A DNA stretch of 24,000 nucleotides from Bryobacteraceae bacterium (GTDB lineage: Bacteria; Acidobacteriota; Terriglobia; Bryobacterales; Bryobacteraceae): the NCBI GenBank assembly GCA_040902885.1, contig JBBDWK010000075.1, forward strand, positions 17,526-41,525, read 5' to 3'. Within the stretch, counting starts at the first letter, position 1, and each line of letters starts with the position of its first letter. Of the stretch, positions 13,598 to 15,703 are shown piece after piece. The translations under genes and the position numbers were made by a program. The notes under the pieces were generated by a model. It did no database searches. It saw only the letters and a list, made by a program, of their open reading frames with translations, and had not been told where the DNA came from.

Positions 13598-15703
13598 ATG
13601 CCCAAGCCGATCAAATACGCCGAAAAAGCTTTGACCTATGCCGCTGGTGCGGCCTGGGCTGTGTTCGAGAAGGCAAATAGCATCAACCGCAACGCGTCGT
13701 TTACGCCTAAGTGGTCCGACAAACCACTTCTGAAATCCTGGGAGAAGGTCAAGCCGACCCTTGGCTGGCCCCGAACCACGGATTCTCTGTGTCCCCGATG
13801 CATCCCCGAGATCCGCCAGGAGATCGTGGACGGCAAAGCGGACCACAAGATTCTCCTGACGGAGAAAGTCGGGGAGATCAAGGCGCAGGTCATCGAGCGC
13901 GACGGCAAGATCCTGATGGTGAAGGACTGCCCGAAGCACGGCCACTTTGAGGATGTGATGGCCATCGATGTGGATTTCTTCCGCCATCTGGAGCAGGTCT
14001 TCCCGGGGCGCGACATCCGCGCGCACAACGACGAAAAGCTGCACAATCACGGTTCCAGCACCATTACCCACGGACGCGGCTCGGTTCTGACCGTGGATCT
14101 GACCAACCGCTGCAACATGATGTGCGATCCGTGCTTCATGGATGCCAATCAAGTCGGCTTTGTGCATGAGCTGACATGGGAAGACATCACCACGCTTCTG
14201 GACAATGCCATCTCCATCAAGCCGAAACGGCAGATGTCGGTTCAGTTTTCGGGCGGCGAGCCAACCCTGTCGCCGTACTTCCTGGACGCGGTCCGGTACT
14301 CGCGCAAGGTGGGCTACAACAGCGTACAGGCGGCGACCAACGGCATCGAGTTCGCCAAGAGTCCCGAGTATTGCAAGCAGGCGGCCGAAGCGGGTCTGCG
14401 CTACGCGTATCTTCAGTTCGACGGCATCGGCAACGCGGCCAACTCGCACCGCAAGGTGGGCAATCTGTTCGACGTGAAGCTGCGCGCCATTGAGAACCTG
14501 CACGCCGCCGGCGTGGATATCGTCCCGGTAACCACCATCGTGAACGGCATCAACAACGAGCAGGTGGGCCGCATCATCCAGTTCGCGCTCGATAACCCCA
14601 AGAAAATTTCTTTCTGCTCTTTCCAGCCGGTGTCCTTCACAGGCCGGGACGAAGCCGTAACCGATGAGCGCCGCCACGCGCAGCGCTACACGCTTTCCCA
14701 TCTGGCGCACGACGTAAAGAACCAGACCGGACTCGGAGAGCCGGTGCGCGATTGGTTCCCGATTTCCTTCATGAGCACGTTCTCCGACTGGGGCGACCTG
14801 GTTCACGGGCCGAATGCCGACTGGGGCGTAGTGAGCTGCGGCTGCCATCCCAATTGCGGCGTGGGCATGGCCATCATGGTGGATAAGGAAACCAAGGAGT
14901 CGGTTCCCGTAACGGCCTTTTTGAAGGCCGATCAGCTCGCCAAGGACATCGCCAAAGTGAACGACGCCGCGCGGGGCAAGTTCCTCTCGCTGGCCGGCAT
15001 GGCGCTGGCATTGATGAAGAATTACGATCCGATGAAGGCGCCTACCCACTTCAAGCTCACCGACCTTCTCAAGAAGTTCGACAAGACCTTCGGAGCGACG
15101 GGCCGCAGCTACGGCAAGGTCGGGCCCGACCGGACCATGGACGATATCGAGAAGCGGCGGCGCGACCGTTGGAACTTCCTGTTCATCGCCGGGATGTGGT
15201 TCCAGGATCTGTTCAACTACGACTTCCGCCGCACCGAGCAGTGCATCATCCCCTACGCCACCCAGGAAGGCGAGATTTCCTTCTGCGCCTACAACACGGG
15301 CGTGGGCTGGAGGAACATCATCGAGAAGATGCACATGACGGCGACGCTCACCAAGTGGTATGACGAGCACGGCCGCCACGAAATCTTCGCGGGCAACAAG
15401 GCAGTGCCTCTCGCCAGCAAGGAGCATTCCTTGCGGCTGAACGCCGATCACGTGGCTGCGGGCCTGCAGCACGACCTGGACAAGCTGGGCATCGCCAAGA
15501 ACAGCTTCGAGGAGAAGGCCCGGGCGCGCGACGCCAAGCTGAAGGAAGCCGAGAACCAGCGCATGGCCAAGCTCTACCGGCAGCACGTCCTGAAAGAGAA
15601 GCCGGAAGACCCGGGGTTCGTCTCTCTCGCCACCATCGCGCCTCCTCCGAGCGCTCAGCCCAAGCAGGAGCAGCGCGAAGAAGTGGGATCGTTCGGCGAC
15701 TAA
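13598..15703 (+). CDS. Radical SAM enzyme resembling the tetraether lipid synthase family (Tes / GDGT-MAS-like), 701 aa
   Basis: AGGAG lies 9 nt upstream of the ATG.
- N-terminal rubredoxin/zinc-ribbon-like pair: SLCPRC (C65, C68) and DCPKHGHF (C111, H114).
- Canonical radical SAM motif: DLTNRCNMMCDPC (C172/C176/C179, nt 14111-14134).
- SAM-binding motif: FSGGEPTL.
- Auxiliary cysteines: VSCGCHPNCG and ISFCAYNTG.

The radical-SAM assignment is secure. The Tes-subfamily assignment rests on remembered motif architecture, not on an alignment. The 686-aa antisense ORF 13526..15586 is a high-GC artefact. Confidence 0.88.
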   Translation: MPKPIKYAEKALTYAAGAAWAVFEKANSINRNASFTPKWSDKPLLKSWEKVKPTLGWPRTTDSLCPRCIPEIRQEIVDGKADHKILLTEKVGEIKAQVIERDGKILMVKDCPKHGHFEDVMAIDVDFFRHLEQVFPGRDIRAHNDEKLHNHGSSTITHGRGSVLTVDLTNRCNMMCDPCFMDANQVGFVHELTWEDITTLLDNAISIKPKRQMSVQFSGGEPTLSPYFLDAVRYSRKVGYNSVQAATNGIEFAKSPEYCKQAAEAGLRYAYLQFDGIGNAANSHRKVGNLFDVKLRAIENLHAAGVDIVPVTTIVNGINNEQVGRIIQFALDNPKKISFCSFQPVSFTGRDEAVTDERRHAQRYTLSHLAHDVKNQTGLGEPVRDWFPISFMSTFSDWGDLVHGPNADWGVVSCGCHPNCGVGMAIMVDKETKESVPVTAFLKADQLAKDIAKVNDAARGKFLSLAGMALALMKNYDPMKAPTHFKLTDLLKKFDKTFGATGRSYGKVGPDRTMDDIEKRRRDRWNFLFIAGMWFQDLFNYDFRRTEQCIIPYATQEGEISFCAYNTGVGWRNIIEKMHMTATLTKWYDEHGRHEIFAGNKAVPLASKEHSLRLNADHVAAGLQHDLDKLGIAKNSFEEKARARDAKLKEAENQRMAKLYRQHVLKEKPEDPGFVSLATIAPPPSAQPKQEQREEVGSFGD

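What the first reader, a model, noticed from the sequence alone, without database searches (positions are those of the whole stretch)
13598..15703. Stand-alone Tes/GDGT-MAS-like radical SAM enzyme in an Acidobacterium: candidate membrane-spanning (brGDGT-type) lipid synthase
**Seen in the sequence.** The 701-aa protein combines several elements:
- an N-terminal CPRC ... CPKH metal site (C65, C68, C111, H114)
- the CxxxCxxC radical SAM cluster motif (C172, C176, C179)
- a GGEPTL SAM-binding motif
- downstream auxiliary cysteines (SCGCHPNCG, ISFCAYN)

**Established knowledge.** This layout is what I associate with the archaeal tetraether synthase family (Tes, also called GDGT-MAS; M. jannaschii MJ0619 type). 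That enzyme joins two lipid tails by radical C-C coupling and carries extra Fe-S clusters plus a rubredoxin-like iron. Bacterial homologues are known to exist. The enzyme behind acidobacterial branched tetraethers and iso-diabolic acid has not, to my knowledge, been demonstrated biochemically.

**Inference.** The other genes in this window point to a Solibacter-like Acidobacterium, a lineage reported to make brGDGTs. This gene is therefore a direct candidate. It is monocistronic, divergent from queG and convergent with wrbA. No other lipid genes are nearby, so genomic context neither helps nor hurts.
Basis: partly seen in the sequence, partly recalled or inferred. Interest (0 to 1): 0.8.

Follow-up and report, generated by a model that had tools for sequence, protein, structure and literature searches.

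The report
Divergent acidobacterial tetraether-synthase-like enzyme
This gene encodes a radical-SAM enzyme related to the archaeal enzyme that joins two lipid tails into membrane-spanning lipids, but it is the divergent second copy found across Acidobacteria, lacks one of that enzyme's four metal centres, and is an untested (already published) candidate for making the bacterial lipids used as palaeoclimate proxies.

Summary
Its best profile, structure and fold matches are all Tes/GDGT-MAS (7TOL, TM 0.85).

It is not a canonical Tes:
- It scores 323 bits against NCBIfam Tes (cutoff 450).
- It is 32% identical to MJ0619.
- It lacks the CX3CX2C..H motif of the N-terminal auxiliary [4Fe-4S] cluster (0/39 family members versus 107/107 canonical acidobacterial Tes).
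- It carries clade-specific N- and C-terminal extensions.

The catalytic machinery is intact: the radical SAM cluster, all 11 SAM contacts, the three C-terminal cluster cysteines, Met439, Tyr459 and the rubredoxin-like site.

By length, identity and E-value it corresponds to S. usitatus Acid_2410 (714 aa). Acid_5929 is that organism's canonical Tes.

The family is ~75-83% identical across acidobacterial subdivisions 1, 3, 4 and 6 (at least 598 species genomes). It sometimes lies just upstream of the canonical Tes.

The general idea that acidobacterial Tes homologues make brGDGTs has been in print since 2022 and is still untested. What appears new is the separation into two paralogues, the loss of one cofactor, and the phylum-wide distribution that matches iso-diabolic acid production.

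Most likely function: tail-to-tail C-C coupling of iso-C15 lipid chains (confidence about 0.55).

The parts
13598..15703 (+). Tes-like radical SAM gene (701 aa), matching the Acid_2410 type of S. usitatus
   Evidence: ORF. Pfam and NCBIfam matches. 7TOL at 8.6e-62. AF2 model against 7TOL gives TM 0.85.
13598..13768 (+). Clade-specific N-terminal extension (aa 1-57), with a confidently predicted helix at aa 4-27
   Evidence: Absent from MJ0619 and from canonical Tes. 72% conserved in 79 orthologues. pLDDT 87-95.
13769..13963 (+). Rubredoxin-like / Zn-ribbon_HMPTM domain (aa 58-122). Ligands C65, C68, C111, H114, with a 22-aa insertion between the two knuckles
   Evidence: Pfam PF23545 2e-12. 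Ligands conserved in 79/79 orthologues. C111/H114 align to MJ0619 C33/H36. Spacing is X42, against X20 in MJ0619.
13964..14092 (+). Linker (aa 123-165) replacing the N-terminal auxiliary [4Fe-4S] domain. No Cys ligands; His-rich (H130, H143, H149, H151 are conserved in at least 95% of the 79 orthologues; H151 is 79/79)
   Evidence: MJ0619 C73/C77/C80/H83 align to K147/H151/S154/T157. The motif is absent in 39/39 window-type proteins and present in 107/107 canonical ones. pLDDT is below 50 at 144-155.
14093..14737 (+). Radical SAM core (aa 166-380). C172/C176/C179, GGEPTL at 219-224, and all SAM/5'-dA contact residues
   Evidence: Pfam PF04055 at 168-330. Eleven of 11 named SAM contacts are identical to GDGT-MAS. 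89% conserved.
14738..15337 (+). C-terminal auxiliary-cluster / lipid-pocket domain (aa 381-580). C420, M533, C549, Y553, C563, plus clade-typical C414 and C416
   Evidence: These align to MJ0619 C338, M439, C455, Y459, C470. Conserved 79/79. The domain is covered by the 7TOL superposition.
15338..15700 (+). Clade-specific C-terminal extension (aa 581-701): a conserved TLTKWYDEHGRHEIFAG block, a long helix at 636-664, and a disordered tail
   Evidence: No counterpart in MJ0619. Conservation is 67% for 581-650 and 49% for the tail. Secondary structure and pLDDT.
13453..13597 (.). Intergenic region shared with divergent queG; presumed promoter region, with an AGGAG ribosome-binding site
   Evidence: Sequence. 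No consensus sigma-70 match above expectation.

Best explanation
The gene encodes a member of a distinct subfamily of the tetraether synthase (Tes/GDGT-MAS) superfamily that is found across the Acidobacteriota. By length, identity and E-value it corresponds to Solibacter usitatus Acid_2410.

**Proposed function.** It most likely joins the terminal (omega) carbons of two iso-C15 lipid chains held on glycerolipids. That would make the C30 13,16-dimethyl (iso-diabolic) membrane-spanning chain found in acidobacterial iso-diabolic acid lipids and brGDGTs.

**Proposed mechanism**, by analogy with GDGT-MAS:
1. The radical SAM [4Fe-4S] cluster (C172/C176/C179) cleaves SAM.
2. The 5'-deoxyadenosyl radical abstracts H from a terminal methyl.
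3. The substrate radical is parked as a C-S adduct on the C-terminal auxiliary [4Fe-4S] cluster (C420/C549/C563, with labile M533).
4. A second SAM generates a radical on the second chain, which attacks that carbon and forms the C-C bond.

Electrons would enter through the rubredoxin-like Fe site (C65/C68/C111/H114). The surface [4Fe-4S]N relay of archaeal Tes is missing here.

**Shown here:** homology, fold, conservation of catalytic and ligand residues, loss of the N-cluster motif, clade separation, distribution across the phylum, and occasional adjacency to the canonical Tes.

**Inferred:** the substrate, the product, the electron path, and how the work is divided with the canonical paralogue.
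For: **Family and fold**
- The best profile is Tes (NF045702, 3.8e-96).
- The best solved structure is GDGT-MAS (8.6e-62).
- The AF2 model (pLDDT 81.6) superposes on 7TOL/7TOM with TM 0.84-0.85. The next-best hit, MoaA, reaches 0.53.

**Catalytic residues**
- All 11 SAM/5'-dA contacts described for GDGT-MAS are identical.
- So are C338, M439, C455, Y459 and C470 (residues taken from PMC9433317).
- All ligands are invariant in 79/79 orthologues.

**Distribution**
- There are relatives in at least 598 species genomes.
- The best 80 are all Acidobacteriota, from Terriglobales/Acidobacteriaceae and Korobacteraceae (SD1), Bryobacterales (SD3), Blastocatellia (SD4) and Vicinamibacterales (SD6).
- SD1, 3, 4 and 6 are the subdivisions reported to make iso-diabolic acid (PMC13274423; PMC13159169).
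- Mss is absent from the acidobacterial genomes examined, and strict-criteria Tes homologues occur in only 3 of 14 iso-DA producers.
- E. aggregans makes iso-DA and brGDGT-Ia. Its single reported Tes homologue (32% identity, 4e-61) has the window-type signature: Acid_2410 is 30.1%/4e-62 and the window protein is 31.9%/1e-67.

**Linkage to the canonical Tes**
- The gene lies 262 bp upstream of the canonical Tes on one contig.
- It lies within 0.6-6 kb, on the same strand, in 4/80 loci. The chance probability is at most about 3e-4.

**Selection**
- Orthologues are 75-83% identical across classes, while neighbouring QueG is 54-71% identical.
Against: - No experiment exists for any bacterial Tes homologue.
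- No lipid genes are nearby, and no neighbourhood is conserved across the phylum.
- The protein fails the curated Tes cutoff and lacks one GDGT-MAS cofactor, so its substrate or chemistry may differ.
- The same lineage has a canonical Tes, which could do the coupling alone.
- S. usitatus carries Acid_2410 but has no detectable free iso-diabolic acid. The C30 chain is there in ether-bound form.
- I could not test for absence from the non-producing subdivisions 8, 10 and 23.
- The subdivision 4 and 6 evidence rests on single MAG contigs, which could be mis-binned.
- Conservation this strong is unusual for a lipid-tailoring enzyme and remains unexplained.
Confidence: 0.55

Rival explanations
1. 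The canonical Tes paralogue (Acid_5929 type) is the real membrane-spanning lipid synthase. The window-type enzyme uses the same radical chemistry for a different or complementary step on hydrophobic lipids. Examples: only the first or only the second tail coupling (brGTGT versus brGDGT), intramolecular macrocyclisation, or acting on ester-bound rather than ether-bound chains.
For: - Both paralogues coexist in Bryobacteraceae and Solibacter and are sometimes adjacent. That fits two steps of one pathway.
- GDGT-MAS itself makes both macrocyclic and tetraether products, with GTGT as an intermediate.
- brGTGTs accumulate in S. usitatus.
- The cofactor complement and the extensions differ between the two types.
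Against: - Most genomes carrying the window type appear to have no canonical Tes nearby.
- Strict-criteria Tes homologues were reported in only 3 of 14 iso-DA producers, so in most Acidobacteria a complementary role would have no partner.
- E. aggregans is reported to have only one homologue, yet it makes both iso-DA and brGDGT-Ia.
Confidence: 0.25
2. The enzyme acts on a non-membrane-lipid substrate, such as another hydrophobic metabolite, a cofactor (the legacy 'hydroxymethylpterin dimethyltransferase' annotation), or a peptide as in SPASM/TrsS-type maturases. Its extreme conservation would then reflect a housekeeping role unrelated to membrane-spanning lipids.
For: - JGI names many family members as pterin dimethyltransferase.
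- TrsS is the second-best NCBIfam hit (212 bits).
- There is no lipid gene context.
- 75-83% identity across classes is unusually high.
Against: - The pterin annotation derives from MJ0619. The GDGT-MAS authors could not corroborate it, and the active site is a hydrophobic tunnel.
- The TrsS match covers only the radical SAM core and is far below its cutoff (212 vs 490).
- There is no adjacent precursor peptide or trs genes.
- The C-terminal domain, Met439 and Tyr459, which are specific to the Tes mechanism, are all conserved.
- The whole-chain fold match is to GDGT-MAS only.
Confidence: 0.12
3. The gene is a decaying or non-catalytic paralogue: a pseudo-enzyme left over after duplication of Tes.
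For: It has lost one Fe-S cluster motif and scores below the curated family threshold.
Against: - Every remaining ligand and SAM contact is invariant in 79/79 orthologues.
- The protein is more conserved than its QueG neighbour and than the canonical Tes clade.
- The reading frame is intact with strong codon bias.
Confidence: 0.02

Closest known systems
GDGT-MAS / Tes of Methanocaldococcus jannaschii (MJ0619; PDB 7TOL, 7TOM)
   Same: - Same overall architecture: rubredoxin-like domain, radical SAM 3/4 TIM barrel and C-terminal auxiliary cluster domain (TM 0.85).
- Identical radical SAM motif and identical SAM contacts.
- Same C-terminal cluster cysteines, labile Met and conserved Tyr.
   Different: - Only 32% identical.
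- No N-terminal auxiliary [4Fe-4S] cluster ligands.
- A 22-aa insertion in the rubredoxin-like domain.
- About 57-aa N-terminal and about 120-aa C-terminal extensions.
- Extra C414 and C416.
- A bacterial host with G3P-based, non-isoprenoid lipids.
Canonical bacterial Tes homologues (S. usitatus Acid_5929 type, ~545 aa; NCBIfam NF045702 members in Bryobacteraceae)
   Same: Same superfamily and same host lineage. Both are proposed in the literature as brGDGT candidates, and they are sometimes adjacent in the genome.
   Different: - The canonical type passes the Tes cutoff (474-558 bits), is 42-44% identical to MJ0619, and has two CX3CX2C motifs (107/107).
- The window type scores 323 bits, is 32% identical to MJ0619 and 34-36% identical to the canonical type, has one motif (39/39), and forms a separate clade.
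S. usitatus Acid_2410 (Q025C7, 714 aa), listed as a second Tes homologue in Halamka et al. 2022, Table S6
   Same: Same length class, and the same identity and E-value signature against archaeal Tes: 30.1%/4e-62, compared with 31.9%/1e-67 here. Same order, Bryobacterales.
   Different: I could not align it directly, because the sequence was not retrievable with these tools. The equivalence is inferred from length, scores and lineage.
Mss (membrane-spanning lipid synthase) of Thermotoga maritima and Thermoanaerobacter ethanolicus
   Same: A radical SAM enzyme that couples two fatty-acyl tails into diabolic or iso-diabolic acids. This is the reaction proposed here.
   Different: - A different radical SAM family: Tes searches find no homologue in the genomes that encode Mss.
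- So far restricted to anaerobes, and reported absent from the acidobacterial genomes examined.
- No Mss sequence was available to me, so I made no direct comparison.
TrsS radical SAM (seleno)protein (NF045646)
   Same: Second-best NCBIfam hit. It shares the Zn-ribbon and radical SAM core region.
   Different: The score is 212 against a cutoff of 490. The match ends at residue 378, so it does not cover the C-terminal domain.

Membership tests
Radical SAM superfamily | CX3CX2C cluster motif in a partial TIM barrel, with a GGE-type SAM-binding motif | tested here: met
   C172/C176/C179 and GGEPTL at 219. PF04055 at 66 bits, cutoff 29.5. The fold matches radical SAM cores.
Tes / GDGT-MAS (NCBIfam NF045702 equivalog) | Whole-protein score at or above the curated cutoff (450 bits) | tested here: not met
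   322.6 bits. Canonical representatives P0187, P0189, P0190 and P0192 score 474-558.
Tes / GDGT-MAS | Rubredoxin-like mononuclear Fe site, C-X2-C...C-X2-H | tested here: met
   C65, C68, C111, H114. PF23545 at 2e-12. C111/H114 align to C33/H36. Conserved 79/79. The spacing is X42 rather than X20.
Tes / GDGT-MAS | N-terminal auxiliary [4Fe-4S] cluster ligated by C73, C77, C80 and a conserved His | tested here: not met
   The aligned residues are K147, H151, S154 and T157. The motif is present in 0/39 window-type and 107/107 canonical proteins. Only 3/80 sequences (the window protein plus 79 orthologues) have any Cys in residues 120-170.
Tes / GDGT-MAS | C-terminal auxiliary [4Fe-4S] cluster with three Cys and the labile Met439, plus conserved Tyr459 | tested here: met
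   C420, C549, C563, M533 and Y553 align to C338, C455, C470, M439 and Y459. Invariant in 79/79. Which three Cys ligate the cluster in 7TOL is my inference from invariance, not taken from the paper's text.
Tes / GDGT-MAS | SAM/5'-dA binding network (F106, G145, Y195, D199, R210, V236, T238, Q268, S271, T273, R275) | tested here: met
   All 11 are identical in the window protein (residue list from PMC9433317).
Tes / GDGT-MAS | Overall four-domain fold, including the lipid-pocket C-terminal domain | tested here: met
   Foldseek against 7TOL/7TOM gives E of 1e-33 to 5e-35 and TM (normalised to the target) of 0.84-0.85 over 560-570 columns. The N-cluster loop is modelled with pLDDT below 50.
Tes / GDGT-MAS | Catalyses Csp3-Csp3 coupling of two lipid tails, with lipid bound in hydrophobic tunnels | not testable with these tools
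   This needs enzymology or genetics.
Mss (bacterial membrane-spanning lipid synthase) | Sequence homology to T. maritima / T. ethanolicus Mss | not tested
   No Mss sequence or profile was available in the tools. The literature says Mss homologues are absent from the acidobacterial genomes examined.
TrsS radical SAM selenoprotein (NF045646) | Score at or above 490 bits with full-length coverage | tested here: not met
   212.4 bits, with the best stretch covering residues 93-378 only.
SPASM/twitch peptide maturases, MoaA/NirJ-like | Curated family cutoffs, and SPASM Cys-rich C-terminal motifs | tested here: not met
   All of these score at most 72 bits against cutoffs of 265-650. The PDB hits to MoaA and SkfB cover only the radical SAM core.

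The most novel reading that the evidence does not exclude
The window-type clade, rather than the canonical Tes homologue, would be the long-sought acidobacterial iso-diabolic-acid / membrane-spanning chain synthase. It would be a streamlined three-cofactor Tes relative that has lost the surface-exposed [4Fe-4S]N relay, possibly as an adaptation to aerobic life, and that works in nearly all subdivision 1, 3, 4 and 6 Acidobacteria. The canonical Tes, present in a minority such as Solibacter and Koribacter, would add or boost tetraether (brGDGT) formation. If so, this gene would be the best marker for brGDGT-precursor producers in soils and peats.
Probability: 0.35. Interest if true: 0.85.

Novelty: new variant of a known kind. 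Interest (0 to 1): 0.6.

Why it matters
brGDGTs are among the most widely used terrestrial palaeotemperature and pH proxies, yet the enzyme that builds their membrane-spanning chain in Acidobacteria has not been demonstrated.

The literature treats all bacterial 'Tes homologues' as one group. This analysis shows that Acidobacteria carry two deeply diverged types with different metal-cofactor complements. The type in this window is the one spread across the phylum in a pattern that matches iso-diabolic acid production.

That gives three practical gains:
- It sharpens which gene to knock out or express.
- It explains why strict homology screens found Tes in only 3 of 14 producers.
- It offers a natural experiment on whether the N-terminal cluster of Tes is needed for catalysis.

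It also flags two annotation problems. NCBI calls this family a generic 'radical SAM protein'. JGI often uses the legacy pterin-methyltransferase name, which the GDGT-MAS authors could not corroborate.

Tried and rejected
1. **Genomic context as a functional clue.** queG adjacency occurs in only 12/80 loci and wrbA in 1/80. An unbiased clustering of flanking ORFs found no conserved neighbour across the phylum; the best was an unannotated 288-aa protein in 15/80 loci. The genes lying between the two paralogues, where they are close, are unrelated to lipids: PPK2, OmpA, hydrolase, DAO.
2. **Promoter and terminator scans.** Nothing above the shuffle expectation.
3. **Phyletic tables from supplements.** Sahonero-Canavesi's supplements are not held. 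Zeng's held supplements contain no organism names.
4. **Cultured strains with known lipids among the close homologues.** The cluster members were all MAGs. Only Acidipila rosea DSM 103428 (L002) among the genome loci is a clearly named culture-collection strain.
5. **Literature on Acid_2410 or Acid_5929 by name.** No papers in the library.
6. **Geometry checks on the AF2 model** (clustering of the linker histidines, the lipid tunnel). Coordinates are not exposed to the script environment.
7. **Rejected readings.** Pterin methylase, TrsS, SPASM maturase, MoaA/NirJ and pseudo-enzyme (see the rivals and membership rows).
8. **The antisense 686-aa ORF at 13526-15586.** Rejected as a high-GC shadow ORF.
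Full report
**1. Observation**

The ORF at 13598-15703 (+) is real: ATG start, 701 aa. Codon composition supports this frame (GC3 0.83, GC2 0.40). The 686-aa antisense ORF inside it fails the same filter. An AGGAG box sits 9 nt upstream of the ATG.

The neighbours are as described. queG is divergent (12358-13452, -). A WrbA/FMN_red-type gene is convergent (16003-~16575, -). Further out are a TPR protein, a BrnT toxin module, glycosidases and a TonB-type outer-membrane protein. There are no lipid genes. An identical protein is deposited from a Bryobacteraceae MAG, which confirms the taxonomic guess.

**2. Family assignment**

- Pfam finds Radical_SAM (168-330) and the Zn_ribbon_HMPTM domain (58-122).
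- The best NCBIfam model is Tes (NF045702, 3.8e-96). Its 322.6 bits is below the curated equivalog cutoff of 450. TrsS comes next (212 bits, cutoff 490, radical SAM core only). MoaA, NirJ and SPASM families are far behind.
- The only strong PDB sequence match is GDGT-MAS (7TOL/7TOM, 8.6e-62, query residues 93-578).
- An AlphaFold2 model built on a 146-sequence alignment has mean pLDDT 81.6 and pTM 0.85. It superposes on 7TOL/7TOM with TM 0.84-0.85 normalised to the crystal structure. The next hit, MoaA, reaches 0.53 and covers only the core.

So the protein belongs to the Tes/GDGT-MAS superfamily, and the match includes the C-terminal domain.

**3. Cofactor sites**

Lloyd et al. 2022 (PMC9433317) describe four metallocofactors in GDGT-MAS:
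- a rubredoxin-like Fe (C9, C12, C33, H36)
- [Fe4S4]N (C73, C77, C80 plus a His)
- the radical SAM cluster
- [Fe4S4]C, with labile Met439 and the conserved Tyr459

I reconstructed MJ0619 numbering from the 7TOL alignment. It reproduces the paper's residue numbers.

The mapping to the window protein is:

| GDGT-MAS feature | Window protein | Result |
|---|---|---|
| C33 / H36 (rubredoxin-like Fe) | C111 / H114, with C65/C68 as the first knuckle | conserved |
| C98 / C102 / C105 (radical SAM cluster) | C172 / C176 / C179 | conserved |
| C338 / M439 / C455 / Y459 / C470 ([Fe4S4]C region) | C420 / M533 / C549 / Y553 / C563 | conserved |
| 11 named SAM/5'-dA contacts (F106, G145, Y195, D199, R210, V236, T238, Q268, S271, T273, R275) | all identical | conserved |
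| C73 / C77 / C80 / H83 ([Fe4S4]N) | K147 / H151 / S154 / T157 | lost |

This is not an alignment accident. In alignment A1, 107 of 107 canonical acidobacterial Tes sequences have two CX3CX2C motifs, and 39 of 39 window-type sequences have one. Only 3 of the 80 sequences (the window protein plus 79 orthologues) have any cysteine in residues 120-170. The AF2 model is disordered exactly at 144-155.

The replacement linker is itself 83% conserved and rich in histidine: H130, H143, H149 and H151 are conserved in at least 95% of the 79 orthologues, and H151 is 79/79. I cannot explain that. Other clade-specific features are:
- a 22-aa insertion in the rubredoxin-like domain
- C414 and C416 (79/79)
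- an N-terminal extension with a confident helix at residues 4-27
- a ~120-aa C-terminal extension with a conserved TLTKWYDEHGRHEIFAG block and a long helix at 636-664

There is no transmembrane segment.

**4. Two paralogues in Acidobacteria**

Halamka et al. 2022, Table S6, lists two S. usitatus Tes homologues:

| Gene | Length | Identity to MA_1486 | E-value |
|---|---|---|---|
| Acid_5929 | 545 aa | 40.2% | 1.4e-139 |
| Acid_2410 | 714 aa | 30.1% | 4.2e-62 |

A search seeded with a canonical representative shows that Bryobacteraceae and Solibacter MAGs carry the ~545-aa type. NCBI names some of these 'tetraether lipid synthase Tes'. These proteins:
- are 42-44% identical to MJ0619 (E about 1e-145)
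- are only 34-36% identical to the window protein
- include four tested representatives (P0187, P0189, P0190, P0192) that pass the NCBIfam cutoff with 474-558 bits

The window protein is 31.9% identical to MJ0619 (1e-67). It therefore corresponds to Acid_2410, not to the canonical Tes. This equivalence is inferred from length, scores and lineage, because I could not retrieve the Acid_2410 sequence.

A neighbour-joining tree places the window-type orthologues, with representatives P0121 and P0130, in a tight clade. That clade is separate from the canonical one, which holds both MJ0619 and the acidobacterial canonical Tes. A third type, diverged further still, exists in Terriglobus roseus (P0137).

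**5. Distribution and selection**

The genome-collection scan found relatives in at least 598 species genomes. The best 80 are all Acidobacteriota and 77-83% identical over the full length. They come from:
- Bryobacterales
- Acidobacteriaceae (including Acidipila rosea DSM 103428 and an Edaphobacter sp. MAG)
- Korobacteraceae
- Blastocatellia
- Vicinamibacterales

Pairwise identity plateaus at 75-83% whatever the class. QueG in the same loci is 54-71% identical.

These lineages correspond to subdivisions 1, 3, 4 and 6, the ones reported to produce iso-diabolic acid. Sahonero-Canavesi et al. found no Mss in the acidobacterial genomes they examined. They found Tes homologues in only 3 of 14 producers, using a cutoff of at least 30% identity. 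The window type sits right at that threshold, which could explain why it was missed.

Zeng et al. reported a single Tes homologue in E. aggregans (32%, 4e-61). That matches the window-type signature, and E. aggregans makes both iso-diabolic acid and brGDGT-Ia.

**6. Linkage**

There is no conserved neighbourhood across the phylum. The canonical Tes, however, lies 262 bp downstream on one metagenomic contig. It also lies 0.6-6 kb downstream, on the same strand, in 4 of 80 loci. Chance would give at most about 0.3 such cases (P at most about 3e-4). The intervening genes are unrelated to lipids. This is modest evidence that the two enzymes work in the same process.

**7. Interpretation**

The catalytic centre used by GDGT-MAS for Csp3-Csp3 coupling is fully conserved: the radical SAM cluster, [Fe4S4]C with its labile Met, and Tyr459. 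The cofactor that has been lost is a surface one, thought to tune redox potentials and electron transfer.

The most likely function is therefore the same chemistry on bacterial iso-C15 chains, giving the iso-diabolic C30 chain. My confidence is about 0.55.

The rivals are:
- **A complementary lipid step alongside the canonical Tes** (0.25). This is the main rival.
- **A non-lipid substrate** (0.12). This is disfavoured because the pterin annotation could not be corroborated by the GDGT-MAS authors, and the TrsS and SPASM matches cover only the core.
- **A decaying paralogue** (0.02). The conservation data exclude this.

**8. Novelty**

The general hypothesis has been in print since 2022 (Zeng, Chen, Halamka). 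In the literature available to me it is still untested as of 2025-2026.

In the searchable literature I found no separation of the two acidobacterial types, no note of the missing [Fe4S4]N site, and no mention of Acid_2410 or Acid_5929 by name in any paper's main text.

I rate it a new variant of a known kind, with interest 0.6. The question is important and directly testable, but the gene family is already on the field's radar.

**Caveats**

- The subdivision 4 and 6 evidence rests on single MAG contigs.
- Absence from non-producing subdivisions could not be tested.
- Orthology to Acid_2410 and to the E. aggregans gene is inferred from scores, not from direct alignment.
- The identity of the three [Fe4S4]C cysteines in 7TOL is inferred from invariance.

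Noticed in passing
window 17170-17710 (-): A BrnT-family ribonuclease toxin gene (17420-17710, Pfam 6.9e-28) overlaps a 97-aa ORF (17170-17463) that has no Pfam hit. The second ORF is probably its BrnA-type antitoxin, making this a type II toxin-antitoxin module.
   Followed up: partly
window 4360-5205 (-): An Mrp/NUBPL-type P-loop Fe-S cluster carrier ATPase (PF10609, 1.2e-98) lies 8 kb from the radical SAM gene. It is not syntenic with the gene in other genomes, so it is probably unrelated.
   Followed up: partly
window 5277-8329 (-): Two overlapping ORFs (5277-7133 and 6998-8329) both carry BNR/SBBP/sortilin-type beta-propeller repeats. They could be one gene split by a frameshift or assembly error, or two adjacent paralogues.
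   Followed up: no
window 13526-15586 (-): A 686-aa antisense ORF lies entirely inside the radical SAM gene. It lacks the coding codon bias and is a typical shadow ORF of a high-GC genome.
   Followed up: yes
P0137 (Terriglobus roseus DSM 18391, WP_014786616, 624 aa): A third acidobacterial Tes-like paralogue, 41% identical to the window protein and 27% to MJ0619. It keeps the rubredoxin-like site, the radical SAM motif and the Met533 equivalent. In my alignment it lacks equivalents of the C-terminal cluster cysteines C420, C549 and C563. Its function is unknown.
   Followed up: partly
L002 6883-7749 (+), and 14 other Acidobacteriaceae loci: A ~288-aa protein with no Pfam match sits just upstream of the orthologue, on the same strand, in 15 of 80 loci. 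It is the only recurrent neighbour besides queG.
   Followed up: partly
window aa 123-165 (nt 13964-14092): The linker that replaces the [4Fe-4S]N motif is 83% conserved, with H130, H143, H149 and H151 conserved in at least 95% of the 79 orthologues (H151 is 79/79). AlphaFold models it with pLDDT below 50. It might be a different metal site or a partner-docking loop. This is unexplained.
   Followed up: partly
L031, L040, L052, L067 and a JGI contig from sample 3300056388: In these genomes the window-type gene and the canonical Tes lie on the same strand, 0.26-6 kb apart. PPK2 recurs between them in L031 and L040.
   Followed up: yes
family-wide (P0006, P0009, P0012 and others): JGI annotates many family members as '7,8-dihydro-6-hydroxymethylpterin dimethyltransferase'. 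This legacy MJ0619 annotation could not be corroborated by the GDGT-MAS structure paper. NCBI gives only 'radical SAM protein'.
   Followed up: yes
L001-L080 orthologues: Pairwise identity among orthologues plateaus at about 75-83% across acidobacterial classes, while QueG in the same loci is 54-71% identical. This is unusually strong conservation for a lipid-tailoring enzyme. Horizontal transfer within the phylum is not excluded.
   Followed up: partly
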